Position numbers and translations under genes: made by a program
Sequence record: OP312987.1
Length of the DNA: 64,000 nt
DNA from: Escherichia phage vB_EcoS_Uz-1
Direction: 5' to 3' (one strand)
In this document: one piece after another, positions 15,187-55,844 of the stretch
How positions within the stretch are numbered: the stretch's first letter is position 1
Layout of the letters: the number at the start of each line of letters is the position of its first letter
Notes under the pieces: model-generated
What the model was told of the DNA's origin: nothing
Databases searched by the model: none
The model's input: only the letters and a program-made list of their open reading frames with translations

Positions 15187-15446
15187 GTATTGGTGATGTA
15201 ATTAAACACCAGGATGGTATGAAGACGAACCAAGGTGCTTCACCTGTTGGTGCATTCCAAATTAACCAAGCTACTCTGAAAGACTTCGCTCCTAAAGTTC
15301 TTGGTTCAGATTGGCAAAGCCAGCCTCTTTCTCCTGAGAACCAGGATAAGATTGGTAAGGCTATCTTTGAGGCCCGTAAGAATGGCAACCTTAAAGATAC
15401 CTGGGCTGCACTTCCTAACTCTACCCAGGTGCTTATAAGGATATGA
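15183..15446 (+). CDS. hypothetical protein, ATGA-coupled to neighbours
   Basis: 87-aa ORF; start overlaps the upstream stop (ATGA) and its stop overlaps the next start. Confidence 0.4.
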   Translation: MSIGDVIKHQDGMKTNQGASPVGAFQINQATLKDFAPKVLGSDWQSQPLSPENQDKIGKAIFEARKNGNLKDTWAALPNSTQVLIRI

Positions 15447-16279
15447 CTTGGGAACAGATTAAACCTGTTATTGCTCAAGCCGAGGTGGGAGCTGACCCAC
15501 TCGCTATGGTTCAGAATAATCAAGGTAATCAGGCAGTATCTACTCTGGCTCAGGGTATGATTGGTACACGTTCTATGCAGGATAACACCGGTAGTCTTAA
15601 CACTGACTTCCTTGGTACTGTCACTGATAATACCCCAGTAGGTGAGATTGCTAACCGTTTGTTGGAAGGTGACTTTAAAGGTGCTGACCGTAACTGGGTA
15701 CTGAACCGACTGAATGATATTTCTCAACGTGGGAATATGTCACCAGCTATGGCTGCTGCTGTTATGCAACGTGCACAGACCGGTGTTCCAGAAGGTTATA
15801 TTAGTCGTGCTATTGATGCAGTTAACCCATTCATTACCAATGAAGCTGGTAATGGTATGCGTCTTAATGACCGTCTGGTAGATCAGTTAATTGAGGGTGT
15901 ACAACGTGGTGAACCACTGGAAGGTAGTGTGCGTAATCTTGGACGTGCTCAAGCTATGCAGAATATTCAGGCAGCACAGACTGCTTATGATGCTGCTGTA
16001 GCTGCACTGACAAATACCCAGAACAAGATTAACACTGGACAAACTGGACTTACTGCACTGTTACCTGCACGTCAGGAAGCTGTTACTAAAGCTGCTGCAA
16101 TGCTTCAAGCTGCCCAAGCTCAAGTACAGGCTGACCCAGCTAACCTGGCTCCAAGAGGTTTTCAGTCTCAGGCTAGTGTGGACAGGGCACGAGCCAAGGA
16201 AGATGAAGAACGTGCTGCACGATACTTACGTCAGGCACAAGGTTTGCCTGAGTATATGCAACCAAGACAAAATCGGTAA
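15443..16279 (+). CDS. hypothetical virion protein immediately upstream of the virion RNAP
   Basis: 278-aa ORF, A/Q-rich, ending 76 nt before the giant polymerase gene; may belong with the two preceding ORFs as one gene. Confidence 0.4.
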   Translation: MTWEQIKPVIAQAEVGADPLAMVQNNQGNQAVSTLAQGMIGTRSMQDNTGSLNTDFLGTVTDNTPVGEIANRLLEGDFKGADRNWVLNRLNDISQRGNMSPAMAAAVMQRAQTGVPEGYISRAIDAVNPFITNEAGNGMRLNDRLVDQLIEGVQRGEPLEGSVRNLGRAQAMQNIQAAQTAYDAAVAALTNTQNKINTGQTGLTALLPARQEAVTKAAAMLQAAQAQVQADPANLAPRGFQSQASVDRARAKEDEERAARYLRQAQGLPEYMQPRQNR

Positions 16280-28198: not shown

Positions 28199-28423
28199 TT
28201 AGTAGCTTTAACGCAGCTAACGAGGCTAGGCCAGTCAACTACTACCACTAGTGTTTGTACCAGCGATGCGGGTTGATAGCCCGATAGTAGTAAACTGGGT
28301 TTGAGATTTTTAGTGTTCTCATAGCGAAACCGTCAGGGAGAATAACAATAAATAGAGCCACGGACTGTCTTACCAGTGTTGTCTTTAGAATGCTATGCAA
28401 TCAGGACTATGTTCTCTATTAAT

Positions 28424-28500
28424 GGGTGTCCACTACTGGATTTGAACCAGTGACCTTCCGATTATTAGTCGGTTGCTTTCCCAGTCTAAGCTAAGTGGAC
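28424..28500 (-). tRNA. tRNA, canonical cloverleaf; anticodon reads AAU by hand fold (Ile-type), isotype unconfirmed
   Basis: Minus strand GTCCACT-TA-GCTT-AGACTGGGA-AAGC-A-ACCGA-CUAAUAA-UCGGA-AGGUC-ACUGG-UUCAAAU-CCAGU-AGUGGAC-A. Perfect 7-bp acceptor stem, D-arm, T-arm with TTCAAAT loop; anticodon stem has one mismatch. Confidence 0.6.
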
Positions 28501-28945
28501 ATAAATGAGTGAGTCATGCCAGGCTCTAACTGGCTCCTTCTTCGCAATCCTTACATACCCCTACATAATTATTGCGTTAAGCTTTTATTGTTTAAGTTTA
28601 AGTGAAGGCGTTCTTGCTGACTCATAATTGGGTGGGCGTTTGACGAATGACTAGTTCGTTACTACCCGTTTGCCATAAGTACCTGGCGACTTTGGTTTGA
28701 GGTGGGAGTCCGAGTCCTGTACAGCCTTACCGTTCACACATTGGCAGCATATCTAGAATTGCACTTCCGGCAACTGGATTTAACTGTTACACCTCAAATA
28801 TGGTAGGGGCGTCCAGAAGTCTCATCTGGTACTTACGCCGTCGTATGGTTACGACTTACCCCCATAATCTTACTAATTCAGAGTAGCACTGCTCCATGTT
28901 TGGCCTTTGAACTCCGGGATGGATTAGTGCAATGCTACTTTGAAT

Positions 28946-29069
28946 TGGTTACCAGTGAGGGATTCGAACCCCCGGTTGGAGTCTATAGCTTACCGCAGCA
29001 GCTCTCCAATCTAGCGGTGTCACACTTAGTCCAAACTTGAACATATCAAGCTATCTCGTGCAACTGATA
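28946..29069 (-). tRNA. tRNA-like element with encoded CCA; about 124 nt, non-canonical by manual folding
   Basis: T-arm GGGGG-TTCGAAT-CCCTC, then ACTGGTA-A-CCA. The only partner for the 3' acceptor strand (TATCAGT, one G-U) lies about 120 nt upstream. Confidence 0.3.
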
Positions 29070-29071
29070 AT

Positions 29072-29137
29072 TGGTTCCGGCGTCTGGACTCGAACCAGAA
29101 CACTTATGCCGTGCACGACACTAGTACCTACACCGGA
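29072..29137 (-). tRNA. tRNA-like element with encoded CCA; about 66 nt, lacks a foldable D/anticodon region
   Basis: Acceptor TCCGGTG pairs with CGCCGGA (one G-U). T-arm TCTGG-TTCGAGT-CCAGA, discriminator A and CCA, but only 29 nt between acceptor and T-arm. Confidence 0.3.
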
Positions 29138-29203
29138 ATTAATTGCCAGGGATTCCACCTGGTCCATCTGTTTTTATAGTCACTCAGATATCGTCTGGAC
29201 TGT

Positions 29204-29279
29204 AGGCATGGGTGGGAATCGAACCCACAAACCATTCAGCACTGTAGCCTCACGCTCTACCTATTTGAGCTATCACACA
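29204..29279 (-). tRNA. tRNA-like element, 76 nt, with canonical D-arm and T-arm but unpaired acceptor and anticodon stems in my fold
   Basis: D-arm GCTC-AAATAGGTA-GAGC and T-arm GTGGG-TTCGATT-CCCAC at canonical spacing; acceptor and anticodon stems do not pair by eye. Confidence 0.35.
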
Positions 29280-29572
29280 CCATTGATTAACTCCCCGTTT
29301 CTAATACACGGACGAGGACACTCCATGGTCGTTTGATAATCAGGACGACTCACTCCCGACTGACGCTTGGCTTATTAGGCTGCCATCAGAACAACATCAT
29401 CGTTTGCATTTATGTTATTGGTTCGTTTCTAAAAAACCGCATAATCGCTTACGAAAACTATCAAAGAGTACACTAAGCACAGGTAGCTACCCTGCCGTCT
29501 TCTCCACCTACACCGGCTACAGTGTAAACCTCCGCACGTTAGCTTAATGTACTCATTGATAGGATGTCAGTA

Positions 29573-29642
29573 GGTCGGGGGCTGGATTCGAACCAGCGAG
29601 AGAAGTAGCGACCATCTGCACATGCCTACGTGCTACCTCGAC
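29573..29642 (-). tRNA. tRNA-like element with acceptor, D-arm and T-arm but no clear anticodon stem
   Basis: GTCGAGG ... CCCCGAC acceptor (6 of 7 pairs), D-arm GCAC-GTAGGCAT-GTGC, T-arm GCTGG-TTCGAAT-CCAGC; only 20 nt between D-arm and T-arm. Confidence 0.35.
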
Positions 29643-30027
29643 CATTATAATAGGAGGGAGGGGACGAATCCTCCCTTTATATCCTATATTGCATGTAAGA
29701 TCTAACAGTTCGATGTTGTAGGTAGCTAGGCTATCCGACATTTAACCCAGCCATATAGGGCTTATGTGATTAGAATGCTCAACATTGAGCGGTTAGTTTG
29801 ATAAGGGATCTGAAGCCTTATCCTAAAGATACTAACCTTTGGGATATAGCCTAAGATTCAGAAATGGCCCCTATAGGGAGAGGCCATTGATTAACCCGAA
29901 TGTTGCTTTACATTTTCTGTGATAACCAATTCTTAAAATAGTCTACCTGACGGATGGGGGCCACCCCTAGCGTCAGTGCCATACGGCAAAGATTAAGTTA
30001 AGAAAGGTTATGATAGGAGTTCCTATC

Positions 30028-33110: not shown

Positions 33111-35263
33111 TTATTTGCCAGCGTAGCGTTTAGCCACGGTGACCATTACGGTTGCATTCAATTCATCATCAGGTAATGGATTAGCCAGCTTCTTATTGAA
33201 TGAGTGGACGGCTTGCTGTACTTGAGCAAAGTCCCAACCACTGTCAACCAATGCCAGTGCGTACTTAATCATTTGATTATTACGATTACCGGAGGCAATA
33301 CGACTAGCGAACCAACGCTCCAGATTATCCAACGACTGTACTTCCTTCATCTGGTTCTGGAACTGCTCGTTCTTACTAGTACGAGGAATAAAGTCACGCA
33401 CATCTAACAGATTTGCATCAAGGTTGTAATGATAAGAACCAGTCTCACAGGACATCCACTTCTTGGCTCGTTGGTTAGCTGACTCATCTGTTTCGAATGG
33501 TAGCCAAGCCATAACGTTATTCATGAACTCTTTGTATTCCTCTGTATCGAGGTGTAACTCATAGTTCATTGGAATAATCAGACGGAAGCGGTTCTCTTCA
33601 TCAGTATGACGCTTGGTGGTATAGGTCATGAACTTATATTCCTTCATCAGTTCATGGCACGTATGCAGTGGTACTCCACCATCACAGTCAATAACAATCA
33701 TGTTAAATCCTGGGATAACGTTCTCTTCAGAACGATGCCCATTCTTCATGTGATGGTTTACCCAGTGCATACCGGGAGCTTGGGTTAATACATGCAACTG
33801 GTCGAACGGTACGCGTTCACCAATGTAGTCATAAGCAAAGCTATCACTATATGCCACTATCATCTCATTGATGTCAGTCTCTTTAAGAGTTTCACCACGG
33901 AAGAACTCAATACCCTCATTGAAGGTCTTCTTAATGATGATGTGCTGTTTGTAACCCCATGCAGTAGCAAGAGTCATCATTTCATTACGAGCTGCATTAC
34001 CACTCTTATAGAATGGTAAAGACTCCAGCAAGTCAGCATGAGTTACTTCTTTACCTACGGAGGCAATGTACTTAGCCAGCTTCACATAGGCTTTTTCACG
34101 ATTAAGGATTGTCTGGAATGCTGCCCCAGATTCCTCTACAAGCAGAATTGCTTGTTTAAGGTGAGCCATCTCAATAAATGAACTCTGGTCAACAAATGCC
34201 AGTGCACCTGCCAGCTTAAGAGCTTTGAAGTAACGGTGGGAGATTTCAGCTTTACGAATCTCTTCGTGGTCAGCCATAGCTTCTGCTTGTTTCTCACAAT
34301 CAATTTTGTAAGTAATCAGGGCAATACCTACAGCATCTTCCACAATCATCTTAAAGCCAAACAAGTTTGGGTCAGCCAGACTATGGAAGTGGTTAGCCCA
34401 TTTACCAAGAGACTGTACGTTATCCTGTTTAATCAGGTTACGGTAGATTTCTTCTGGGGTTAGTGTTGCATGTGCTCGTTTGTCTAAATGCCCGATGGCA
34501 AACAAACAACGACGTGCATAACCTGTATCAAGGAAGTCATAGAACTGGTCCTCAGTCTGACCACCATCCAGCAGTTTACTCGGAGTACCAAACAACAGCA
34601 GGTTAGTTGGAGTCTTACCGTCCAGTTCTTCACCACGAACGCTTTCAGCAGTATTCTTGGTCAGCTTCTGCTTAACCTTACCCTGGTCATATAGCTCCAG
34701 AAACAGAGTTAATACATCAGAGTTAGCCAACAGATTTGAACCAATTTCATCAATTTGAAGATTGATTGAACCACATCCAGCCATTAACAGTTTATGACGT
34801 AGCTGTTTAACTGCTGGTGGAGTACCTGAGTCAAACGTAAACGGATATGCTCCGGCACGTTTATATTCTGCTTCAACTTTATCAAACTCTTCCTGCTGGT
34901 CAGTACCTTGACGTGCAGAGCGTTCGTTAGCAATCTTCCATAGACGGTCATTTGCAATGACGGGCATGGTGTCTTCCATAAAACGTTTACGGAAGCCAGT
35001 CATGAACCCGTCTTCGATGATATTACTGAGTGACCTTTACCGAAACCAGATGTAGCCAACGCTATAGCGTAGATGTTTACCGGCAGGTCACCACGGTCTT
35101 TAGTTACGATGGTTGCACCCATGCAGGATGCCATTTTAGCCAAGAAGTAGGCTACTTCGACACGGAAGAATCCCCGGTCATTGTTCTGGGTTTTATTGCA
35201 GAGCACATCTACGATTTCTTCAATCGCTGGATGGTGCACTACTCCGGTAAGGTCAATACTCAT
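33111..35263 (-). CDS. primase-like replication protein; apparent frameshift near 35028-35041
   Basis: Track ORFs 33111..35003 (630 aa) and 35000..35320, with real start at ATG 35263 overlapping the upstream stop as ATGA. The frames join at GGTAAAGGTCACTC (coding strand), consistent with a 1-nt deletion. Primase assignment is tentative (acidic DxD-type motif VIDCDGG). Confidence 0.4.
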
Positions 35264-36240
35264 GATGGAAAATATCTCTCTCTTTGTTTGCAAATGGTCG
35301 CGACAGGGCAGTATAAACAACGCTTAACCTGCCCCTCCACGACCTTGATAGCACCCTTGCCACCTTTTTCAGCCATGAAGATACGGGCAGATGCCATATC
35401 GTCAAAGTTTTTGGTACTTCTGGCTCCAGGCACATCTACCTTAGAAGCATCAGAGAAGTATTTGAATTGTGGCTCTGTTCGCCACAACTCCTCGTCAGTA
35501 CATTCAGGAATTTCCTCTTCAGGAGCATCCCAGTACTTTTCGATGAGGTGAATCTTCTCTTCCACCCAACGTTCAGTCTTCTCGACAGATAGCAGCGGAA
35601 TATCCTTATGCATAATACGATTAGCAGGATAGTTCGGGTTGCTATTAGCCATGTGTTTCATGAAGTCAGTGAAGATGTAGTTAATACGGATTACATCCTC
35701 CGTAATGATGTCGTTATGAATCCAACGGTACAAGCTGCCTTGCATCTTGTGTTCATCATCACGGGAACCGGCAACCCAGGAATAGGTTGAGGTAGACTTA
35801 AAGTCTTGCAACAGACCTTCCGTTACGATGTCGAACTTACCACCGATAGTCCAACCCTTAACTACCCTGGTTCCACGTTGTTCAATGTAGATTGGGATAA
35901 GGTCTGGGTTAGCATCAAAGTCTGCTTTGGTTGGGTTAATGACTACTGCATCAATGACTCGCTGAGGATAGCCTAGTTTCTTCAATGCAGTCTTATGCCC
36001 CAGCTTCCAGGCTTTCTCAATAGAATCATGCAAGCCAGTACCCATTGATGTGGAGACGAAATCCATAACATCAATGGATTGTTCACTGAGATCTACGCGA
36101 TGCTTCATGACGATTTGCTTAATGGGTTTAAGCAATGTAGTAGCAGACAAGTACTTAGGATTGTCTACATAATCATACTCGTCATGTAATAGCCATACAG
36201 CTAGTGCAAGACTAACGTCGTGTTTGTTGGTAAGTTTCAT
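35260..36240 (-). CDS. PD-(D/E)xK nuclease with C-terminal cysteine cluster (Cas4/RecB-like)
   Basis: GKFDIV ... LQDFK motif plus C-terminal CLYCPVATIC and an upstream Cys, compatible with a Cas4-like Fe-S nuclease. Its first 21 codons are duplicated upstream of the adjacent HNH gene. Confidence 0.5.
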   Translation of the reverse strand: MKLTNKHDVSLALAVWLLHDEYDYVDNPKYLSATTLLKPIKQIVMKHRVDLSEQSIDVMDFVSTSMGTGLHDSIEKAWKLGHKTALKKLGYPQRVIDAVVINPTKADFDANPDLIPIYIEQRGTRVVKGWTIGGKFDIVTEGLLQDFKSTSTYSWVAGSRDDEHKMQGSLYRWIHNDIITEDVIRINYIFTDFMKHMANSNPNYPANRIMHKDIPLLSVEKTERWVEEKIHLIEKYWDAPEEEIPECTDEELWRTEPQFKYFSDASKVDVPGARSTKNFDDMASARIFMAEKGGKGAIKVVEGQVKRCLYCPVATICKQRERYFPS

Positions 36241-36734
36241 AACAGTCCCAATTGCTTATTAGTTTTAGCAAACTCACCATAATGAGTTATAGCAGCTTCA
36301 TCATAGAGAACAGCAGCTTCTCTTGGGTCATCTGTAAAACCTAATGTAATTGGTTTACTGTTAACCCAAATAGTTGCTCTGTATTTACCTAAATTCTTTG
36401 AAAAGGATACCCCCTTAAATCCAGATGTGTTTGTTTTAGATAAAACAGCACTCTGGTTATTCTGCTTGTGGGTCGCTTCTCTGAGGTTATCTATCCAGTT
36501 GTGATGGCGAATATTGTCCTTATGGTCAATCCTATCCGTAGGCCATACACCGTGCACATAGAACCATGCAAGGATATGCCCATAGTACAACACACTATCT
36601 ACACGGAGTTGAACGTAACCACTCTTCATTAGGTAACCAGATACCTTTCCGGTATTCCTACGAGTAAAAATCCCGGAAATAGGGTCATAACTAACAAGCT
36701 GTAAAAGCCTGTCATGGGCAATCCTCTGTTTCAT
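36237..36734 (-). CDS. HNH homing endonuclease with AP2 DNA-binding domain (intact)
   Basis: HNH_3-type core (HGVWPTDRIDHKDNIRHHNWIDNL) and AP2-like C-terminus (SGFKGVSFSKNLGKYRATIW ... AAVLYDEAA). 165 aa, free-standing between replication genes. Confidence 0.7.
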   Translation of the reverse strand: MKQRIAHDRLLQLVSYDPISGIFTRRNTGKVSGYLMKSGYVQLRVDSVLYYGHILAWFYVHGVWPTDRIDHKDNIRHHNWIDNLREATHKQNNQSAVLSKTNTSGFKGVSFSKNLGKYRATIWVNSKPITLGFTDDPREAAVLYDEAAITHYGEFAKTNKQLGLL

Positions 36735-36740
36735 AATTAG

Positions 36741-36803
36741 TTACTCGTCATGCAATAGCCATACAGCCAGGGCCAGTGATACATCATGGTTGTTGGTTAT
36801 CTT
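36741..36803 (-). repeat. recoded duplicate of the first 21 codons of the nuclease gene, ending in a stop, directly upstream of the HNH gene
   Basis: 36741..36803 encodes MKITNNHDVSLALAVWLLHDE then stop; 36177..36239 encodes MKLTNKHDVSLALAVWLLHDE as the true gene start. About 76 percent nucleotide identity but 19 of 21 amino acids identical. Confidence 0.6.
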
Positions 36804-36805
36804 CA

Positions 36806-37282
36806 TTAGTAAGTAATCCTGTATCTGTGAACCCAGTTCCACTTAATTTCACTTAGCTGATTGAAGTTATACGAGTAAATTTCATCTCGTTCATCTTTAT
36901 AAACAATCTCAATGAATGAAAATTCTTTAGTGAAGTGAGGTTTACCATTGTTTGTATGGTGCCAATAACTACCAACGGTATTTACATTCGTAGCAGGATC
37001 CGGAAATAACTCACTAGCTAACTTCTCTTTAGCGAGAATACGATTAGCGTAATGAACCAGCTTCTCAGCATCATACACCGAAGAGTTTCCTGGTTTACCA
37101 TTACCCATACGGGCAGCAGCATTTCGCCATAGAGCCTTAAAGGCACAACCTTCATCGAAGGTCATGCCCAGTGCCTGGATAATATCCTCACACTCTGCTT
37201 GGTATGGCTCTTGCTCTTTCCGTTGGGGGTTCTTAACTGGTACTACATACCAGTTATTCAATCCACCGGAGAGCTTAGTCAT
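36806..37282 (-). CDS. hypothetical protein
   Basis: 158-aa ORF between the DNA polymerase region and the HNH insertion. Confidence 0.45.
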   Translation of the reverse strand: MTKLSGGLNNWYVVPVKNPQRKEQEPYQAECEDIIQALGMTFDEGCAFKALWRNAAARMGNGKPGNSSVYDAEKLVHYANRILAKEKLASELFPDPATNVNTVGSYWHHTNNGKPHFTKEFSFIEIVYKDERDEIYSYNFNQLSEIKWNWVHRYRITY

Positions 37283-37587
37283 TATTCCCCCTTGGGAATC
37301 ATGTTTGCCTGGAACTCTGGTTCAGACATCAGACCCAGGTTGTTAATGGACAGATAAACAATGTCTTTCAAATCAACCGAAGTGTCGAAACGCTGGTCCA
37401 GACTAATTTTAAGAGAGTGATTGGCACGGGCCAAATCTTTATAGGTCACATGAGGCTCGTCAGTGAGCAGCATTGTGTTCATAGTAAGCAGGGAGCCATC
37501 ATCAGCTTTGGGAAGCTGGAAGATTACCTGTGCTGCTACCATCCAATGATATTTTCTGACAACGGTTTCTTTAGTACTTTTAGTCAT
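37282..37587 (-). CDS. hypothetical protein
   Basis: 101-aa ORF directly downstream of the DNA polymerase gene. Confidence 0.4.
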   Translation of the reverse strand: MTKSTKETVVRKYHWMVAAQVIFQLPKADDGSLLTMNTMLLTDEPHVTYKDLARANHSLKISLDQRFDTSVDLKDIVYLSINNLGLMSEPEFQANMIPKGE

Positions 37588-40050
37588 GCGAATGCCTTTT
37601 GAATTATTTGATGAACTTCATCTGGGGTAGCGTGATTTGGAATTTCAATCTCGTTAGCCCACGTTGGATAAAACAAGGATAGTTCCCCACCCAAACCAAC
37701 TTCTGGATGAGCAATATCAGGATGGTCTTGCCAGTTAACGGCTTCAACCAAGTGCTTGTTCGTATACTGTAAGGTATCCATGTTGTCACGGATCATGAAG
37801 TATTGGGCATCATGAATGTGAATACAAGGACGGATATCTAACCTGAACTCACTGGTTCTGACTTTACGCATAAACTCTGAGCCAGCACGGTTATTAAGTA
37901 GACACCAGCTTTGACCTAATGCATTACCAGCAGTTCTGCCTTCAGCTTCTGCTTCATACGGAGTCTTACATGTCCCACGTAATACCTGAGCCAGTAAAGG
38001 AGTACGCACTCTTAAACCAAATGCAGCAGTTACATAACCAGTCTTAGCAGCTTCGTCTAGCTTAGCCTGAACCCACAAATCACTAACTACATAGAGATCG
38101 TGATAACGTTTCTCCGTAGTTTTAGCCTTCTCTTCGGAGAAGCCACAGTTTTCATTAAGCCCATGTAAGTACCACCATAGGTAAGCAGGAAGGTTGGAGC
38201 CTTCGAGTCACTACGTAATGATTTGTACTTATGCTGAATGGAATTAATGGATTCTACTGTGTCTTCTATGTCTGGCATCTGCTCACCAAAATAAGCATAT
38301 GCACGGAGACTGTGACCATCATAGCCATCGGTATATACCTTAAGCTTCTGCGGGTCTTTAGTAGTTAAAGCTGAGATACGGTCTTCAAGGCTTGCAAAGT
38401 CCAGTCCACAAAATATCCAACCTGGTGGTGCTTCGAAGCATTTCTTAATCTTCTTGGCGTATTTGGAACCACTGGGGATGGTCTGTAGATTAGGCTCGGA
38501 CGCTGAGAGACGTCCTGATACTGTGCCTCCAAATTGAGGTTACCGAACAGGTAGTGCCATCCATCTGGTCCAGGTTGTGCATTACGGAAAGCTGGGATGA
38601 ATGAAGTGATGATCTTATCCACCAGCTTATAGTCGATAAGTGCATTGAGCAGTTCCTTAACATCTTCACTCTGCGTATGTGTACGCAGTGCTTTAATAGT
38701 GTCACCGTCAGTAGCAGGTTGCTTGCTCTTAGTAAGACCAAGAACCGGTAAGCCGATGTAGTCAAATAACAATTTCTGTAATTGTGGACCAGAGTTAGGA
38801 TTAAACTCTATGTCACAATCAGCCAACGTTACCTGCTTCTTCTTAAGCTTGGCATTCTTATCGTCTACCCATTCCTGACGAAGCATCAGGGTGAAGTTCT
38901 TCATGAGCTTAGACTCACGAATAGTTTTCAGAGCCTGGTTCCTGTCAGTTTCCATTTCTTCAGCTACTTGGTTAACGGTTTCCATATTCATGGGCATACC
39001 GGTTAACTGCATCTGAATAATGTCTTCGCAGGCTGGTTTAAAGATGTTGTTATAAACATCTAGTTGGTTATCAGCTACCAGGGTATCCCAGTGTTTCTCG
39101 TAGGTGTACCAGGTACACAAACCATCAATAAGGTTGTATCGTAACAGTTGCTCATTAGGAATGAGACGAATGTCTTTAATATCATCCTGAGCATAGTTAC
39201 CAGCATACTCCTGAGCCTGCTCTTTTAGACTAAGGTGATTACCAGCACAACTGTTAGTAGCTAAATAAGTAATTAATTTAGTACAGTCCCAGTTACGCAG
39301 CATGATGTCCATGCCATGCAGTAAGCCTCCAGTATCAATCAGGTTATCCATGAATAACTGATAAATAAGTATGTACACATCATAACTAATGTTGTGATAC
39401 ATCTGCCGTTGGGTGTACTTAATGAAGAACTCACGGAGAAGATTTCGAACAATATCATTACGATTGATTCTCCCATAAGGTGCTTCAGTAGCTCCCCTAA
39501 TTGGCTCGTAATCCACATTAAAGGCTATGCCCTGTGTCTTACTCCAACAGAACGTAATTGTTCCTATACCTGCGTTATAGTGCTTTAAACCGAATGCCTC
39601 GATGTCTATAGCCAGAGGCTTATTCATCTCAAGCAACTGGTCTAGCCAGGCTTTAATCTTTTCTGGAGTATCTGGATAGGCTTCAAACTCAATGATTCCC
39701 TGACCTGGTTCAGCATACTGCCCACGTATGTGGTTTAGTAATGCATCCATACCCTGAGCAATTTTGGCTCTCACTACAGGTGGGTCATAAAAGACCTGTC
39801 TGTAACTAGGCGTATAGATAACTTTCTGTTTACCCCATACTGAATCACAAACATAGCCGAGATTAGCCTCTGCTTTAGCCTCTTTAGTCAGTATTTTGAA
39901 GTAATCAGAATCGGTGCAGATAATGTACTGGGTCTCTGCATCATCCAGTACTTGCTGCAATTCCTGCTTTATGAACTCCTTAATCTCTCTTGCTGGGGTC
40001 TTCTTCTTGCCCGGAGCAGAGTGAAGTTCAATAAAGATGAAGTCTTCCAT
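37584..40050 (-). CDS. DNA polymerase, family A, with 3'-5' exonuclease domain; at least two apparent frameshifts
   Basis: Fragments 38365..40050, 38087..38278 and 37584..38078. Exo motif LAIDIEAF; FNPNSGPQLQKLLF; motif A (GLDFASLEDRISA) readable only in a shifted frame after a break near 38531-38546; motif B (KAPTFLLTYGG); motif C (IHDAQYF). Second break at an A-run (ATGAAAACTGTGG) near 38143-38155. Confidence 0.7.
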
Positions 40051-40169
40051 GCTTAGGTCATAAGGCAGCAGGTAGGTTTAATCATCTCCTCCCTTCGGAT
40101 TTGATGACCGAGGATAGCAATAGGATACTTACCAGTATCCTGAGAGGTGATGTAACGCATAGCTTTACC

Positions 40170-42897: not shown

Positions 42898-44946
42898 TTA
42901 CTTAACGTGCTTTGACAGCTTAGTAGCCAATTTGCTCTCTTCTTCAGTCAGACCCATTGCAGCTGAAGACTTCTTAGCTGCACGCTTATAGTCTTGTAGG
43001 GCATGACCTTTCTGATAGTCAGAGATAGGACTATCTTCAGGATGTACGCAGATTATCATGGCATGTTTACCAGTAATGGCAGGCTTATATTTAGTGGGTA
43101 GAACGGTCTTAGCTTGCTTCACTGGTTTTGGTTTGCCGATGGGTTTAGCTGTGTAAGTTGTACGTACATCAGCAATCTTAGCCACTACATCGGAACCAAC
43201 TCCTAAAGCAGCCCATGGCTTACGGGCCTTGCCTCGCATTTCCACAAGCAAATCAGCAGCAGCTAATTTATCTTCTGGGGTTGTTGCATTGAGGAACTCT
43301 TTGACCAGTTCCTGGATTTGTTCTTTCACAGTAGGAGCCTTCTTAATAACGGGTTTAAGGTCAGTAGCCTTCACTGGTTCAGAAGCTACAGTTTCATTCA
43401 GTGACTCTTCCATATTCAGTGCTTCTTTATTAGCAACTGTACGGAATTGTTCTACAGAACCAGATGTGAGATTAGTATATTTGAGGTTAGTACCACGATG
43501 TCCACCAACCATAACAAGTGTGGTAGGTGAACTATGGTTCCCAACGATGGCATCATTAAGCAACTTCTTACCTACTTCTGTCTTAGACAGATAGATACCG
43601 TTGTTAACGTTGCAACGTTCCTCTTCCGGCAGTTCAGCAATAATGTGATATGCAGATACACGCATCTTATTAGTGCTGTACTGAGGAACAGCAAATACAT
43701 CTTCTGGTGCTACTTTACCAAGGATAGTTACGTTACCACCGAAGCTACGAATGTAGCTCATGGATGCTACATGCAGACCATTAGAACAGTCCTGGCGACG
43801 GTCAGGGTCTACCAGGTCTTCGCGTACCTGCACTTTACATCCTACCCATTGACGAATGTTGCCTGAGTGACAATCAACGAATACACGTTTACCATTCTCT
43901 AGACTTCTATACTTCAGACGTTTCAGGAACAGGATTGAACCATCATCAGCAATAGGTAGCTCAGCAGTTTCCATGAACTTCATCAGGTCTTCAACTGAGT
44001 GTAGACGGTCTTTAATTACTGGAGCCAGACGCTCAAGGAACTTAGTAAAGCCCTTGTAGTCTTTCAGTTGGGCAGACTGACGCAAGTGACGTTGCAGGTT
44101 CTCAACTCCAGGGATAACCCCATCGTTGGTAACAGCAACAACCACTTCATCTTCCTTCACATCAGTGTGGAAGTTAGCGTCATCAGTACTAATAGCACCC
44201 AATGCAGCCAGTTTCTCAGAAGCAGCAGCCAGCTTATCCTGATTCGTAACTTTAACCTCTTCTACATAAGGCAGTGGAGTTTCATCGCGACTGGTAAATA
44301 CAATGTGTACTCCTTTGATATGTTTGGCTTGTTTAGCAAACTCACTCATTTCATCATCGGATACTGCACGAATTGCAATAGGCCATTCTTGCTTAAGAAT
44401 GCTGTCAGTATGCTTATAACTCCAACACAGTACATCATTAATAAAACGAACCAGTGCAGGATGGTTATGGTCCTTGTCCCAACCAGTAACCCACATCAGA
44501 TTGTCACGTTTATCGTAACAACCGTCTGCTACTGTTACTTCTGGTTCATTAGCCTGGACAGCCAGGAAGGTATCCATAGCTCTAGACACCAGCGTCTTAG
44601 TGGGATTTCCCAGCTTAATATCTGAGACGATTCGGGCTGGTTGAGTACTTGTACCATCTTCGAAGAACTCTTTGAGTTTAGCCTTAGCTACCTTGAAGAA
44701 ACGGACGAATCCGTTAGTGTTCTTCTCTGCTTCCAGATATTCAGTACGCAGGTTTACTTCTGGTGCAATGTTTACTTCTATCTGGTCTTTGGTAGTTCCC
44801 AGACCTTTGGTTTGTGCTTCAGATACAATACGAGCAACCCGTGGGTCGCTCTGAGGATATACAATCGTGGAGCCATCAGGCTTCCACAGTGTAAGGTTAC
44901 GACTGTCAACTGCCAGTGCGATGATAGAAATCAGTTCGATTTTCAT
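42898..44946 (-). CDS. large hypothetical protein immediately downstream of rIIA-like gene (rIIB-like by position only)
   Basis: 682-aa ORF following the rIIA-like gene on the same strand. No motif recognised; the rIIB label is positional. Confidence 0.3.
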   Translation of the reverse strand: MKIELISIIALAVDSRNLTLWKPDGSTIVYPQSDPRVARIVSEAQTKGLGTTKDQIEVNIAPEVNLRTEYLEAEKNTNGFVRFFKVAKAKLKEFFEDGTSTQPARIVSDIKLGNPTKTLVSRAMDTFLAVQANEPEVTVADGCYDKRDNLMWVTGWDKDHNHPALVRFINDVLCWSYKHTDSILKQEWPIAIRAVSDDEMSEFAKQAKHIKGVHIVFTSRDETPLPYVEEVKVTNQDKLAAASEKLAALGAISTDDANFHTDVKEDEVVVAVTNDGVIPGVENLQRHLRQSAQLKDYKGFTKFLERLAPVIKDRLHSVEDLMKFMETAELPIADDGSILFLKRLKYRSLENGKRVFVDCHSGNIRQWVGCKVQVREDLVDPDRRQDCSNGLHVASMSYIRSFGGNVTILGKVAPEDVFAVPQYSTNKMRVSAYHIIAELPEEERCNVNNGIYLSKTEVGKKLLNDAIVGNHSSPTTLVMVGGHRGTNLKYTNLTSGSVEQFRTVANKEALNMEESLNETVASEPVKATDLKPVIKKAPTVKEQIQELVKEFLNATTPEDKLAAADLLVEMRGKARKPWAALGVGSDVVAKIADVRTTYTAKPIGKPKPVKQAKTVLPTKYKPAITGKHAMIICVHPEDSPISDYQKGHALQDYKRAAKKSSAAMGLTEEESKLATKLSKHVK

Positions 44947-44950
44947 CAGA

Positions 44951-47516
44951 TTAGTTACCTTTCAGTTTATTTAGACGATTACGGTAGAGGGACTTAAACC
45001 CAGGAATATCCTCTGGATTCTTCTTAAGGTGTTTGACCAAACTACCTAAGTCCAGCGTCTGTAGGATGTCATTTTTATTCCAGCTATAACTGAATAATTC
45101 TTTGTAATCATTAAGTATTTTAAAGTACTTATGATTACGCGGATTAGTCATTATTGCATATGGCTCTAAGTCATCCACTGACTTAATACAACCCATTTCA
45201 ACAAGTTTTTCTTTGTTGTCGTGTGGTCGATTCCGTAGAAAGTCATATGCCCATTCATATTCTGGTTTAAAAATCAGATTCTGTAATGGTTTGAAGGTTA
45301 GACCAGTATGTCTAGGATTTCCCAGTATTCCCTGTCATCCAGTCCTACGTATTCCAGAATACCAATACGGTGTTCAGTAACATATTTCTTGAAGCCTTTA
45401 CTGGTAATAACTGGCATCAGCTCCATAAAGCGAACATCATCAATGTGGATAGCACCTCTCCGTTTGGCCTTGTTAGCTTCGATTTGATTACGGCAGACAA
45501 CAGTCTCTGCTCTCATCTCATCAGATAACTCATACCATTTCCACATGGTTCCAATTCGAGCAGTTACTGGGCTACCTGAACCAACCTGATTGGCTAGTAC
45601 GTAGTACTTAGGTTGCTCTACTTCAACGAAACCAGACTTATCATGGCGACTTGGGTCTGCAAATTCCTTCTGAATATAAGGCTTTGGTTCCCAATCCCCA
45701 TTTTTATTCCGTATTTGGGTAGCACCAAGAACTGCATTCAATGAAATCAGAGAATTAGTTTTACCTCCTGCCTTGGTTTTATTGGCAGCGATTGTCTTAG
45801 ACCGTTTCTCAGCAGCTATCTTAGCTTTCTCTCTACGGAAGTTAGTTGGTTTGTCCCACTCATTATATTGAGTAAGGTCGATTACCCGATAACCCATAGC
45901 AGTGAACTTAGCCACAGCTTCTTCTGCTGCACCCTTCTTAGGTCCAACGACGTGAACAAAAGCTGTACGCTCCAGGTCACCTCGATCGTACTCAGGGAAG
46001 TACGAGAAAGAGTCTGCACAGTCAGACAAACGTCGGGTAACTACAACGTTTTTGGTAGTGAATATGCCAATACTTTGGTGGGAGTTATTGTATATCCTAA
46101 AGTAGTCAGTAAGTTTACCTTTTACCAAGTCAACACGGTTACCTTGATTCATTATGTAACCAGACCACTTAATACCAGAGGTTTTCAAAGCAGCCAGCTG
46201 AGGTAAGTGCAGATGGCGATATACTAATTCCGAGAATGGGGAGTATGTACTTTCTTCACGAGTATCCTTAAGAGCACGCATAGCCTTACCATACAGTTTC
46301 TTAAGACCTGCGTATTCAGGACGAGCTAATAATGCCTTATTGGATAAATTACGCCAGTGCTTGATGTAATGCTTACGTTGCTTAGCCCACAAACTAGAGG
46401 ACATATAGCGTTGAACAGTTCTGTCTGTAACAGCACCCAGGAATGATGGATACTCCCAGAAGCGAGTAGAGGATTTAGAAGCATATTCTTCAACCTGCTT
46501 AATGGCTTCAGGAATCTTAGCCTTAATCTCTTTCTCCATACGGTCTACTAAATCTACACATAGAGTAGTAATACCATCGTCGGTTAACTTCTGGTTAGAC
46601 AGCGTTTCTCGACTAGGAGCAATAGCTAAAGTGTCTGGTGCAGCCTGAACTACTAGATTAGAAGCACCAATAATATTCATGAAGTTGAGGATAAGGCCTA
46701 CAGCTTCTTCACTAGCTGGGCTGGATACAATTGGTACATTACATTACCGTAGCGAACGTATATGTTACTGCTACCCATATAGCCTTGATACCATCTATCA
46801 GACATATCATATGAACCAGGTTCAAATGGCATGCCTAGTGTATCCAGTAGAGTGTAGTCGCCTTGTTGAATACTATTACTCTCGTCTGTTCTAATGAGTT
46901 TGGGAGTACTTAGCTCAGCTTTAATTTCACCGTTAAACACAATTGATTTGATGTAATGAATAAAGGTATTTAAATCATGTTTGCCTAACTGGAATTTAAC
47001 TTCCAGACCAGATTCCTCAGTAGGAATACCAGTAATAATAGGAACAATACCAGGCTTACCATCATTCTCAATTGCAGCCTTAGCTACGTTATATACAGAC
47101 ATCTTCCCTTGGTTCCATGATGTAACCTGGAAGCTATCTGTATAAGCGAATGGGGATTTACATCCCAGACCAAAGCCACCAGTAACACTACTGTTGGACT
47201 TCTTGGTAGATGCACCATAGACACCATAAATGGAGCCAATGAGTTCATCTTGGATACCGTTACCGAAGTCACGGAAGGTAATAAAGTTGTCAGTATCAAT
47301 GGTAATACGGATAGGAGTATCAGTCTTACCTGCTTCAATATGGGCATCCCAACTGTTACAGATAGTTTCACGGACTACTGCCAGAGTAGGGTTGTTATAC
47401 AAGGAAGTACTTAATACATGAAAGAATGCCGGGTCATCAGAGATGCCAAAGGCGATTGCTTCTTTGCCACCCAGTGTCGCTGAAGTGGCTGATTGATTGG
47501 TATCTGCAACTAACAT
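44951..47516 (-). CDS. rIIA-like protein with GHKL-type ATPase N-terminal domain; two apparent frameshifts
   Basis: Fragments 46698..47516, 45298..46680 and 44951..45196, about 855 aa combined. GHKL-like motifs ETICNSWDA, RDFGNGI, GGFGLG. Adjacent frames are open and protein-like across both junctions; the second is at an A3 run (TGGGAAATCC, coding strand) near 45315-45324. Confidence 0.55.
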
Positions 47517-47543
47517 TTATTTACTCTCCAGTTTAAATGTTGC

Positions 47544-53136: not shown

Positions 53137-54188
53137 TTATCCGTGAATGTAGCGGGAGATGTTAGCAGCAGCCTTACGCCATTCAGGGGTAGCCTGAAGT
53201 TCTGGCAATGCTCTGCCTACTGTACGAAAGTACAGAATCTTATGAGTGAACGTTTTAAAGCGTTCAATGTACTGAAGAACATCAGCGAAGTTTTCCTCAG
53301 TAGTTTTGTTAGCCAGATGGTTAACGGTAGCCCAACACAGGTTATTATCTTCCGGTAGTGTACAGCCCATAGGGTCTTTGACTACCTTATCAATCGTAAT
53401 GATACGATTGTACACCTGTGTAAATTGAACAAACTCTGTAGCCTTACCAGCAGTAACGTGTCCTGCATAGTAGATAGAATCTTCATCAGGCAGAGCACCT
53501 TCAGGACGGTTCTTGAGGTCTTTGTTAACAAAGTCCCAGGTACGAGGGCAACAGAACGTTTTGTTCTTATGTGCTGGGTCGAAGTCATGCAGATAACCGG
53601 GGTTAGCATGTAAGAATGCAACCAGACGTTCATCCATTGTTGTGGAATCATTACGTCTTCAACAAAGATGTCGAAGTTAAGTTCCATTTCGAAGTGGACA
53701 ACACGGGACTGCATTGCAGTACCCAGTGGGTTAACGATGGCACGGTCAGTAGCTTTGTTACCAGCACAGATAATCATCACATTAGGATGAAGTTTTTTCT
53801 GACCAGTCATACGGTCTAGAATCAGTTTATATGCAGCAGCTATTACTTCTTTGCGAGCAGATGGGAACTCATCAAGGAATAAGAGCCAGCCATTATATCC
53901 TTCCGGTATTTTATCCCCTTCAATTGGGAATAAGTCAGCGAATGGAATAAACTCTGCACGGTCACCATTACGGAATGGTAAGCCAGAAAGGTCTTCCGGG
54001 GCAGAAGTTGACAGACGATGGTCTATCAACTTCATACCAAATTCTTCTGCAATAGAACGAATGATTGCAGATTTACCCATGCCAGGTGATGAAGTCAGGA
54101 ACGGTACGTTACCTGCTTTCAAAGCACGGATAATAAAGTTACGAGCTTGACGTGAATTACATACGGTCAAGGAGTCAATGCTTGCCAT
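53137..54188 (-). CDS. MoxR-like AAA+ ATPase; N- and C-terminal parts in different frames
   Basis: Walker A SSPGMGKS, Walker B LLFLDEF, sensor-1-like ICAGN in 54188..~53650; a protein-like C-terminal ORF 53137..53637 in another frame, while the N-terminal frame continues as low-complexity garbage. Could instead be two genes. Confidence 0.5.
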
Positions 54189-54222
54189 TTACTTACTCTC
54201 CTAAAGCTAATGGAATTACTGA

Positions 54223-54552
54223 TTAAGATTTAGTGCAGGGATAGGCCTTGTGTACTGAGTACACAACAATTTGAGATGTATTCTTCATCTTGAGGATTGC
54301 AGAGTCATAAATAACCACTTTGGCAATCTTAGGCAGAATGACCGAATATTTAATACCTTCTGGAACACAGTTATCTGTGCTCTCGATGTAAGAGATCATA
54401 CTGCCCATGAAGAAACCTTGTCCGAACGCATCACGAGTGTCATCCAGGTAAGCCTGAGCACCTTCCAGAATTGGTTCTGGTTCAATTGCTTGTGCACTTG
54501 GGGCTAAAGCTATCAGTGCAGCTACTGCAATACCTTTAAGTAAAGTTTTCAT
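54223..54552 (-). CDS. small secreted protein with Sec-type signal peptide
   Basis: N-terminus MKTLLKGIAVAALIALAPSAQA with an AxA cleavage-like site; 109 aa. Confidence 0.5.
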   Translation of the reverse strand: MKTLLKGIAVAALIALAPSAQAIEPEPILEGAQAYLDDTRDAFGQGFFMGSMISYIESTDNCVPEGIKYSVILPKIAKVVIYDSAILKMKNTSQIVVYSVHKAYPCTKS

Positions 54553-54738
54553 TTAGTTACCTTTCATTTCATTGAGTTTAAGTACACCGATAGGGGTTAA
54601 TGACCACCCAAGACCAGCATTGAACTGAACTAAGCCCAGCTTCTTAAGAGACTGTGCGGTTTTGTTATTACGGTTGCTGGTGGCAGAACCACCTTGAACC
54701 ATACGAAGGAAGATTGCTTGGGACTGAGTTAATTTCAA
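54553..54738 (-). CDS. hypothetical protein
   Basis: 61-aa ORF, start overlapping the upstream stop. Confidence 0.35.
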   Translation of the reverse strand: MKLTQSQAIFLRMVQGGSATSNRNNKTAQSLKKLGLVQFNAGLGWSLTPIGVLKLNEMKGN

Positions 54739-54944
54739 AGGTAATATCCTTCCAGGTTTATTGGTGTTACAAATGTATTTGCTGATAGATAGAATGATTT
54801 ACCAGTTTCTACAGCAACAGCAGCAGGTTTGCCTTCAGGTAGGTGAATCTTTAAACACACTGTCTGGTTATAAATAAAACCATTAGCAGGCTCTACATCA
54901 CCGAAAGTTACTTCATTGTTCTCAGAACGATTTGTTACTTTCAC
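54735..54944 (-). CDS. hypothetical protein
   Basis: 69-aa ORF, ATGA-coupled. Confidence 0.35.
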   Translation of the reverse strand: MKVTNRSENNEVTFGDVEPANGFIYNQTVCLKIHLPEGKPAAVAVETGKSFYLSANTFVTPINLEGYYL

Positions 54945-55201
54945 TCATCTTCTCCTTCATCCGGTAGCGGTGATAAATCTACACCTAAATGCTTCAGGCG
55001 TTTCTCTAAGTCATCTACCTTATTTTGATAAAATGACAGTAGCTCAGGTAGTATTCTTGTACGAGCTTGCGGTCCTAAATCCTTATCGTAAAAGGATACT
55101 TTCACCATATGTGGAGCTTTCTTCAAACTAGCTAATTGCTGTCGGTTGTCGTTGTATTCTTCATACAATTTCTCAACCAAATGTAGATTGTGGATATTCA
55201 T
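54941..55201 (-). CDS. hypothetical protein
   Basis: 86-aa ORF, ATGA-coupled. Confidence 0.4.
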   Translation of the reverse strand: MNIHNLHLVEKLYEEYNDNRQQLASLKKAPHMVKVSFYDKDLGPQARTRILPELLSFYQNKVDDLEKRLKHLGVDLSPLPDEGEDE

Positions 55202-55386
55202 TTCTTCTCCGGTACGAACTGCATTACACAGCTTTGATTACGAGGGATATTAAGTTCACATTCATGCTTGAGGGTTTGTGTTACAGAGTTTGGAGTAGAA
55301 CCAAAATAGGTATTGGAGATAGCTACGAATCCTGCACCTATTAAACCACCTAGTAAGAATGAGAAGAATGCAATCTCTTTATACAT
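55198..55386 (-). CDS. small membrane protein
   Basis: 62-aa ORF with an N-terminal TM helix. Confidence 0.4.
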   Translation of the reverse strand: MYKEIAFFSFLLGGLIGAGFVAISNTYFGSTPNSVTQTLKHECELNIPRNQSCVMQFVPEKK

Positions 55387-55446
55387 TTCCTGGCTCCAGA
55401 TGTAGAAAACCCAGTCAATGCTGGGGTTTATCTATCAGTTTATACT

Positions 55447-55707
55447 TTATAGACCATGTGGTCGGCATAGACTACCCGAACCAAACGAACGGTGTCCAAG
55501 TCGGCCCAGGATTAGATTGCTTACTTCAGCAGCAGCACGACTGAATGCTTTAAAGTCAAAAACTACGATACCAAAGAGTGGGGCTGCAATAGCAGCTACC
55601 ATGATTGGAGTCAGGTCAACCAGTGACATACCCAAGATTAAGTGAGCAGCGTAGGCAATAATACCCATTCCAACACCACAACCATATCCAATAGCAATTT
55701 TACGCAT
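55447..55707 (-). CDS. small membrane protein
   Basis: 86-aa ORF with two G/A-rich hydrophobic helices. Confidence 0.4.
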   Translation of the reverse strand: MRKIAIGYGCGVGMGIIAYAAHLILGMSLVDLTPIMVAAIAAPLFGIVVFDFKAFSRAAAEVSNLILGRLGHRSFGSGSLCRPHGL

Positions 55708-55844
55708 AGTTACCTTCTTAGTTAGTAAGTTGATTTACATATTCATATAACAGACAAACAATAGTCAAAAAAGACTCCCTTCAATAGGGAGGTCAAACTT
55801 GAGGGTTTCATTTCAGGGTTTATAACCCCAAACAAAGAATACCC

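What the first reader, a model, noticed from the sequence alone, without database searches (positions are those of the whole stretch)
44951..47516. rIIA-like gene split into three ORFs by frameshifts
ORFs 46698..47516, 45298..46680 and 44951..45196 are consecutive on one strand, and at both junctions the downstream frame is open and protein-like for 12 to 22 codons before its annotated start. The second junction is restored by adding one A to TGGGAAATCC. Combined length is about 855 aa with an N-terminal GHKL ATPase domain, as in rIIA.
Basis: seen in the sequence. Interest (0 to 1): 0.4.

Follow-up and report, generated by a model that had tools for sequence, protein, structure and literature searches.

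The report
Ordinary rIIA gene, split by sequence errors
This is the ordinary rIIA gene of an N4-like E. coli phage, and the two single-base gaps that cut it into three pieces are almost certainly errors copied from a flawed public reference genome (phage Bp4), not biology.

Summary
ORFs 47516..46698, 46680..45298 and 45196..44951 (minus strand) are collinear pieces of one rIIA gene, the homologue of N4 gp33. It has an N-terminal GHKL ATPase domain and sits directly upstream of rIIB.

Relatives show exactly what is missing: one C from a CCC run (window 46733-46734) and one G from a GGG run (45303-45304). Restoring them gives a 2568-nt, 855-aa ORF. It matches the rIIA profile end to end and differs from phage PD38 rIIA at 8 residues.

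The breaks are most likely artefacts:
- The window aligns without any gap over all 64,000 nt to Escherichia phage Bp4 (KJ135004.2), despite 5.95% substitutions.
- Bp4 differs from its near-twin PD38 by 3 substitutions and 32 indels. All 32 are deletions in Bp4, and 31 shorten a homopolymer.
- The window carries every one of them, even inside strongly diverged stretches.
- The same indels break DNA polymerase, primase and virion genes.
- Every relative examined has an intact rIIA.

The window is probably a consensus built in Bp4 coordinates, possibly vB_EcoS_Uz1. Interest is low.

The parts
44951..47516 (-). Complete rIIA gene (N4 gp33 homologue) as it stands in the window. It is 2566 nt here and 2568 nt (855 aa) once the two missing bases are restored.
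   Evidence: tblastn of PD38 rIIA hits three frames collinearly: residues 1-263, 262-738 and 739-855.
46698..47516 (-). Fragment 1. It holds true rIIA residues 1-262 with the GHKL/HATPase_c_3 ATPase domain, followed by about 10 out-of-frame codons and a TAG stop.
   Evidence: Pfam PF13589, E = 6.4e-10. PHROG 2979 positions 1-249.
47526..47529 (-). GGAG Shine-Dalgarno motif 9 nt upstream of the rIIA ATG. It is the only convincing ribosome-binding site among the three ORF starts.
   Evidence: Read directly from the sequence. No GGAG or GAGG precedes the ATGs at 46680 or 45196.
46733..46734 (-). Junction 1. The minus-strand run CC is CCC in relatives (GTACCCAATTG), so one base is missing.
   Evidence: Alignment to PD38 and ShWW44. 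Three of three metagenome contigs and one IMG/VR contig carry CCC. The deleted 30-mer is absent from IMG/VR.
45298..46680 (-). Fragment 2, the central part of rIIA. The true coding frame already begins at about 46732, 17 codons upstream of the ATG of the called ORF.
   Evidence: PHROG 2979 positions 266-733. 100% identical to PD38 rIIA residues 262-738.
45303..45304 (-). Junction 2. The minus-strand run GG is GGG in relatives (ACTGGGTCT), so one base is missing. It lies immediately before the TAA that ends fragment 2.
   Evidence: Alignment to PD38 and ShWW44.
44951..45196 (-). Fragment 3, the C-terminal part of rIIA. The true frame is open from about 45304 onward (PD38 residues 739-855).
   Evidence: PHROG 2979 positions 775-845. 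tblastn gives 100% identity over residues 739-855.
42898..44946 (-). Intact rIIB gene (N4 gp34 homologue), the partner of rIIA. It starts 4 nt after the rIIA stop.
   Evidence: PHROG 2886 'RIIB lysis inhibitor', E = 1.7e-208. Single-frame tblastn hit, 88.7% identical to PD38 rIIB.

Best explanation
The locus is the normal single-ORF rIIA gene of a Gamaleyavirus (N4-like, Schitoviridae) E. coli phage. It encodes an 855-aa protein with an N-terminal GHKL-type ATPase domain and is co-transcribed with rIIB.

Its split into three ORFs comes from two one-base homopolymer under-counts (CCC to CC, GGG to GG). These are sequencing or assembly artefacts of the public Bp4 genome record. The window inherited them because its sequence was built in Bp4 coordinates, most likely as a reference-guided consensus in which substitutions were called but insertions relative to the reference were dropped.

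Shown here: the identity of the gene, the exact missing bases, the intact state in all relatives examined, the genome-wide homopolymer-deletion pattern, and the gap-free correspondence to Bp4.

Inferred: that the real phage DNA carries CCC and GGG, and that the window comes from a Bp4-guided assembly, possibly vB_EcoS_Uz1 (OP312987).

Function rests on established knowledge of T4 and on PMC8594841. The rIIA/rIIB pair protects the phage from Rex-type abortive infection. The mechanism is poorly understood, and nothing here tests it.
For: 1. Gene identity. The repaired protein matches PHROG 2979 over residues 1-850 against profile positions 1-845 of 846, at 990 bits. It has 8 aa differences from PD38 rIIA, all within the first 111 residues. 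HATPase_c_3 is present and rIIB lies adjacent.

2. Relatives. PD38, which differs from Bp4 in this 2.9 kb only by the two indels, has one 2568-nt ORF. ShWW44, 9 IMG/VR loci at 48-96% identity and 2 metagenome contigs each have one ORF of 852-855 aa. In the megablast listing only Bp4 shows more than one rIIA feature.

3. Error signature. Over 64 kb, Bp4 differs from PD38 by 3 substitutions and 32 gap events. All 32 are deletions in Bp4. Of the deleted bases, 28 of 33 lie in runs of 3 or more, against 13% expected (P about 3e-20). The 32:0 direction gives P about 5e-10.

4. Other genes are broken too. In the window, DNA polymerase I falls in 4 frame segments, primase gp43 in 2, the gp51-like virion protein in 3, gp53-like in 2 and gp24-like in 2. 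A plaque-forming phage cannot plausibly carry all of these.

5. Bp4 coordinate frame. The window aligns to Bp4 8584-72583 with no gap over 64,000 nt at 5.95% mismatch. Natural relatives at 91-93% identity need 3-15 alignment pieces. The Bp4 deletion states persist where the window has 20-45 mismatches within 100 nt either side.

6. Likely source. PMC9670874 describes vB_EcoS_Uz1 with exactly the Bp4 length (72,583 bp), the same odd tRNA annotation (Xle, Cys) and use of the Genome Detective tool.

7. Translation signals. Only fragment 1 has a Shine-Dalgarno motif.
Against: No reads were available, so the true run lengths in the phage DNA were not observed.

rII genes are dispensable for T4 on permissive hosts, and homopolymer runs are natural frameshift hot spots, so a genuine rIIA-null phage is biologically possible.

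The announcement for the probable source genome says it was assembled with SPAdes from Illumina reads. Taken at face value, that method would not produce homopolymer under-counts.

Both rIIA sites lie inside a 2413-nt block identical to Bp4 (44684-47096). The window therefore gives no independent information on them either way.

The Bp4 genome paper was not held, so its sequencing chemistry is unknown to me.
Confidence: 0.9

Rival explanations
1. The two frameshifts are real mutations. On this reading, Bp4 and the phage behind the window are natural or laboratory rIIA-null mutants making only a 262-residue ATPase fragment, tolerated because rIIA is dispensable on hosts lacking a Rex-like exclusion system.
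For: Two public-type sequences (Bp4, and the window) show the same breaks. rII mutants of T4 are viable on permissive hosts (established knowledge; PMC8594841). Both sites are homopolymers, which are natural slippage hot spots.
Against: The two sequences are not independent. The window is gap-free against Bp4 over 64 kb and shares all 32 Bp4-specific deletions. The same class of deletion breaks DNA polymerase, primase and virion proteins, and those breaks cannot all be real in a viable phage. PD38 is identical to Bp4 apart from the indels and is intact. Two independent hits in one non-essential gene, with no accompanying substitutions, would be unusual.
Confidence: 0.07
2. The gene is expressed as one protein through two programmed -1 ribosomal frameshifts, or alternatively the three ORFs are separately translated functional proteins.
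For: Each break would be compensated by a -1 shift. A GGGAAAT heptamer lies in the junction-2 overlap.
Against: Junction 1 has no XXXYYYZ heptamer at all. The junction-2 heptamer is out of phase, because the zero frame reads TGG GAA ATC rather than G GGA AAT. PD38 has the same flanking sequence with a continuous ORF, and no relative conserves a frameshift. ORF2 and ORF3 lack Shine-Dalgarno motifs, and their ATGs are internal Met codons of the intact protein.
Confidence: 0.01
3. The breaks are artefacts created independently in the assembly behind the window, as recurrent systematic errors at the same sites, rather than being inherited from the Bp4 reference.
For: Flow-based chemistries make reproducible errors at particular homopolymers (established knowledge).
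Against: This would need all 32 sites to be identical with no extra indel anywhere in 64 kb at 6% divergence. That is far more simply explained by a shared coordinate frame. The probable source used Illumina.
Confidence: 0.02

Closest known systems
Escherichia phage Bp4 (KJ135004.2 / NC_024142.2), CDS EpBp4_0054, _0053 and _0052, each annotated 'rIIA-like protein'
   Same: It has the same three ORFs at the same coordinates (window coordinate + 8583) and the same two missing bases. It is 98.7% identical across 2901 nt, and all 38 differences lie in 47097-47532.
   Different: The window carries 38 substitutions at the 5' end of the gene, and that stretch resembles other Gamaleyaviruses more closely (96% to E20 and F22). 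Genome-wide the window is 5.95% diverged from Bp4 but has no indel.
Escherichia phage PD38 rIIA lysis inhibitor (AXY81322.1, MH669274.1 16499-19066)
   Same: It belongs to the same species (Gamaleyavirus Bp4). It is identical to Bp4 in this region apart from the two extra bases. The repaired window protein differs from it at 8 of 855 residues.
   Different: PD38 has a single uninterrupted 855-aa ORF. It also has intact DNA polymerase, primase, gp51-like and gp53-like genes, all of which are broken in Bp4 and in the window.
The rIIA/rIIB locus of phage N4 (gp33/gp34) and of T4
   Same: There is full-length similarity to the rIIA profile of N4-like phages (PHROG 2979) and weaker N-terminal similarity to T4-type rIIA families (PHROG 612 and others). 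The N-terminal GHKL ATPase domain is present and rIIB lies immediately downstream. PMC8594841 notes that the rIIAB locus of N4-like phages is homologous to that of T4.
   Different: No functional data exist for this locus. Protection against Rex-type exclusion is extrapolated from T4. As written in the window, the gene is interrupted.

Membership tests
rIIA (PHROG 2979; N4 gp33-type RIIA) | Full-length, collinear sequence similarity to the family profile | tested here: met
   The three fragments hit profile positions 1-249, 266-733 and 775-845 of 846. The repaired protein hits 1-845 in one stretch, E = 2.1e-297.
rIIA (PHROG 2979; N4 gp33-type RIIA) | N-terminal GHKL (HATPase_c) ATPase domain | tested here: met
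   Pfam PF13589 HATPase_c_3, E = 6.4e-10, 39.6 bits against a cut-off of 25, residues 47-155. Weak NCBIfam hits to topoisomerase VI B and sacsin ATP-binding domains cover the same residues.
rIIA (PHROG 2979; N4 gp33-type RIIA) | Immediately followed by rIIB on the same strand | tested here: met
   ORF 44946..42898 matches PHROG 2886 RIIB at E = 1.7e-208 and starts 4 nt after the rIIA stop.
rIIA (PHROG 2979; N4 gp33-type RIIA) | One uninterrupted ORF of about 850 aa | tested here: not met
   The window as given has three ORFs. The feature is met only after adding one base at 46733-46734 and one at 45303-45304. All relatives examined meet it.
rIIA (PHROG 2979; N4 gp33-type RIIA) | Function: with RIIB, protects the phage from Rex-type abortive infection or lysis-related exclusion | not testable with these tools
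   Known for T4 only (PMC8594841).
Programmed -1 ribosomal frameshift site | In-phase slippery heptamer X XXY YYZ within the frame overlap | tested here: not met
   There is none at junction 1. GGGAAAT at junction 2 is out of phase with the zero frame, which reads TGG GAA ATC.
Programmed -1 ribosomal frameshift site | Frameshift conserved in related genomes | tested here: not met
   Apart from Bp4 itself, every relative examined, from 48% to 99% identity, has a continuous ORF.
Homopolymer-length sequencing or assembly artefact | The indel shortens a homopolymer and belongs to a one-directional, genome-wide excess of such indels over substitutions | tested here: met
   Between Bp4 and PD38 there are 32 of 32 deletions against 3 substitutions. 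28 of 33 deleted bases lie in runs of 3 or more, P about 3e-20.
Homopolymer-length sequencing or assembly artefact | The same class of indel disrupts essential genes of a phage known to be viable | tested here: met
   DNA polymerase I, primase gp43, and the gp51-like and gp53-like virion proteins are each split across frames in the window.
Homopolymer-length sequencing or assembly artefact | Raw reads contradict the consensus at the site | not testable with these tools
SRR21162442 is named in PMC9670874.

The most novel reading that the evidence does not exclude
The two rIIA frameshifts are genuine and shared by descent in the Bp4 lineage. Circulating Gamaleyaviruses that lyse avian-pathogenic E. 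coli would then do without full-length RIIA while keeping RIIB intact, and rIIA would be dispensable or counter-selected in that niche.
Probability: 0.05. Interest if true: 0.15.

Novelty: already known. Interest (0 to 1): 0.05.

Why it matters
Biologically it matters very little. This is a routine rIIA gene, and the same three-piece annotation already sits in the public Bp4 record.

Its practical value is as a data-quality flag:
- The Bp4 RefSeq and GenBank record carries about 32 homopolymer deletions.
- Those errors appear to have propagated into at least one further genome built on it.
- The result is false pseudogenes and inflated gene counts for rIIA, DNA polymerase, primase and virion proteins.
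- Anyone using these records for phage-therapy screening, pangenomes or training data should use PD38 as the clean representative of the species.

Tried and rejected
1. Programmed frameshifting. I scanned both frame overlaps for XXXYYYZ heptamers. There is none at junction 1 and an out-of-phase GGGAAAT at junction 2, so I rejected this, also because relatives are continuous.

2. Three independent genes. I rejected this because the fragments are collinear pieces of one profile, ORF2 and ORF3 lack Shine-Dalgarno motifs, and no relative has separate genes.

3. The window as independent confirmation of the Bp4 frameshifts. I rejected this after finding the gap-free 64-kb correspondence.

4. Occurrences of the deleted junction elsewhere. 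The deleted 30-mer is absent from IMG/VR. The three metagenome matches all carry the intact CCC.

5. Fetching OP312987 (vB_EcoS_Uz1) to test whether it is the source of the window. It is not in the collection.

6. Reading the Bp4 genome paper (PMC8193434) for the sequencing platform. It is not held.

7. NCBIfam has no rIIA model. It returned only sub-threshold GHKL-type hits.

8. A look-up in the CRISPRi-ART paper (PMC11879866) for rIIA essentiality in N4-like phages failed on a term-length rule, and I did not repeat it.

Full report
**What is in the sequence**

On the minus strand, the ORF listing returns ORFs 47516..46698 (272 aa), 46680..45298 (460 aa) and 45196..44951 (81 aa). They are followed directly by a 682-aa ORF at 44946..42898.

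The three ORFs hit one profile, PHROG 2979 'RIIA lysis inhibitor', collinearly at profile positions 1-249, 266-733 and 775-845 of 846. The downstream ORF is RIIB (PHROG 2886, E = 1.7e-208). ORF1 contains a GHKL ATPase domain (Pfam HATPase_c_3, E = 6.4e-10, above the curated cut-off).

Three-frame translation shows the ORF2 frame open for 21 codons before its ATG. The ORF3 frame is open for 46 codons before its ATG, and 12 of these overlap the end of ORF2.

**Where the breaks are**

The region is 98.7% identical to Escherichia phage Bp4 (KJ135004.2) and 98.6% to phage PD38 (MH669274.1). About 55 other Gamaleyavirus genomes (N4-like, Schitoviridae) cover it at 89-95% identity.

Bp4 annotates the same three 'rIIA-like protein' CDSs. 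PD38 and ShWW44 annotate a single 2568-nt rIIA.

A four-way alignment shows exactly two indels:
- Minus-strand GTACCCAATTG has become GTACCAATTG (run at window 46733-46734).
- Minus-strand ACTGGGTCT has become ACTGGTCT (run at window 45303-45304).

In this 2.9 kb, Bp4 and PD38 differ by nothing else.

Restoring the two bases gives a 2568-nt ORF. Its 855-aa product differs from PD38 RIIA at 8 residues, all within the first 111. It matches PHROG 2979 in one stretch, residues 1-850 against profile positions 1-845 of 846, at 990 bits.

It would mis-predict six residues, giving ENPRHTGL instead of the conserved EILDILGL.

**Relatives**

Nine IMG/VR loci at 48-96% protein identity, two metagenome contigs, ShWW44 and PD38 each carry one uninterrupted ORF of 852-855 aa.

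The 30-mer spanning the deleted junction 1 is absent from IMG/VR, while the intact version is present. All three metagenome matches have CCC. Three separate genes are therefore not the ancestral or common state anywhere.

**Why the breaks are almost certainly artefacts**

1. Over the 64 kb covered by the window, Bp4 differs from PD38 by only 3 substitutions but by 32 gap events. Every one is a deletion in Bp4, and 31 of the 32 shorten a homopolymer.
2. Of the deleted bases, 28 of 33 lie in runs of 3 or more, against 13% of the genome (P about 3e-20). The 32:0 direction has P about 5e-10. A one-directional excess of indels over substitutions is the signature of homopolymer under-calling, not of evolution.
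3. The same events break essential genes. tblastn of PD38 proteins against the window finds DNA polymerase I in four frame segments, primase gp43 in two, the gp51-like virion protein in three, gp53-like in two and gp24-like in two. Helicase, vRNAP, portal, major capsid protein and RIIB are in one piece. A phage that forms plaques cannot carry all of these lesions.

**Why the window does not independently confirm Bp4**

The window aligns to Bp4 positions 8584-72583 with no gap at all over 64,000 nt, although 3811 positions (5.95%) differ. Natural relatives at 91-93% identity align in 3-15 pieces covering 89-97%.

The Bp4 deletion states are retained even where the window has 20-45 substitutions within 100 nt either side.

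The substitutions themselves look natural. Transitions outnumber transversions 2:1. In rIIA most of them leave the protein unchanged, with 38 nt changes giving 8 aa changes. The 47090-47540 patch is closer to other Gamaleyaviruses (96%) than to Bp4.

The simplest reading is a real, distinct phage whose deposited sequence is a consensus in Bp4 coordinates. Substitutions were called, and insertions relative to the reference were lost.

A genome announcement describes such a candidate (PMC9670874). vB_EcoS_Uz1 (OP312987) is 72,583 bp, exactly the Bp4 length. It has the same 'Xle, Cys' tRNA annotation, and its reads were processed with tools from the Genome Detective package. The window ends exactly at the position equivalent to the end of the Bp4 record. 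I could not fetch OP312987, so this attribution is an inference.

Both rIIA sites lie in a 2413-nt block (44684-47096) that is identical to Bp4. At these sites the window says nothing independent about the phage.

**Rivals**

- Genuine rIIA-null mutations are biologically possible. rII is dispensable for T4 on permissive hosts, and Rex sensitivity of rII mutants is documented in PMC8594841. However, they are not supported once the shared coordinate frame and the broken essential genes are taken into account. I give this about 7%.
- Programmed frameshifting is excluded for practical purposes. Junction 1 has no slippery heptamer. The GGGAAAT at junction 2 is out of phase. Relatives with identical flanks have a continuous ORF.
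- Separate translation of ORF2 and ORF3 is unlikely. Only the first ATG is preceded by a GGAG motif (47529-47526), and the other two ATGs are internal Met codons of the intact protein.

**Function**

The gene is the N4 gp33-type rIIA. By homology it makes an 855-aa protein with an N-terminal GHKL ATPase domain and acts together with RIIB. In T4 the pair protects against RexAB abortive infection by a mechanism that is still poorly understood, and N4-like phages carry a homologous locus (PMC8594841). Nothing in this work tests that function.

**Verdict**

The feature is an ordinary, already annotated rIIA gene, and its split is an inherited sequence artefact. Interest is low. The useful by-product is the evidence that the Bp4 reference record and a derivative genome carry about 32 homopolymer errors.

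Noticed in passing
window 1-64000 (equivalent to Bp4 KJ135004.2 8584-72583): The whole window aligns to phage Bp4 with no gap and 3811 substitutions (5.95%). Eleven blocks of more than 400 nt are identical, for example 1-2960, 44684-47096 and 53920-55796. It looks like a consensus built in Bp4 coordinates. vB_EcoS_Uz1 (OP312987; 72,583 bp, the same length as Bp4; PMC9670874) is a candidate source.
   Followed up: partly
window 37587-40160 (-): The DNA polymerase I gene (N4 gp39 homologue; 859 aa and intact in PD38) is broken into four frame segments by homopolymer deletions at about 38148, 38525 and 40076.
   Followed up: partly
window 33114-35263 (-): The primase gene (N4 gp43 homologue; 717 aa in PD38) is split into two frames by a missing T at about 35022.
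   Followed up: partly
window 11197-13847 (+) and 14320-16276 (+): The gp53-like (884 aa) and gp51-like (654 aa) virion protein genes are split into 2 and 3 frames by deletions at 12296 and at 14972, 15066, 15169 and 15423.
   Followed up: partly
window 53140-54188 (-): The gp24-like gene (350 aa in PD38) is split into two frames at about 53633. Further deletions at 51970, 52134 and 52139 lie in the gp25-like gene, which the Bp4 record annotates as two CDS.
   Followed up: partly
window 47097-47532: All 38 differences from Bp4 in the rIIA region are clustered here. This patch is 96% identical to phages E20, F22 and PhAPEC5 but only about 92% to Bp4. That suggests either a recombination boundary inside rIIA at about 47097 or a boundary between read-supported and reference-filled sequence.
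   Followed up: partly
window 28423-29643 (-): ARAGORN finds three tRNA genes: Ile-AAT, Cys-ACA and Ala-CGC. The Bp4 record annotates only two ('Xle' and Cys). Homopolymer deletions at 29162, 29752 and 29757 lie nearby, in a region where PD38 annotates no genes.
   Followed up: no
window 36237-36734 (-): An HNH homing endonuclease gene (per the Bp4 annotation) lies inside a block that is 100% identical to Bp4 (36191-37027), while the flanking sequence is 4-8% diverged.
   Followed up: no
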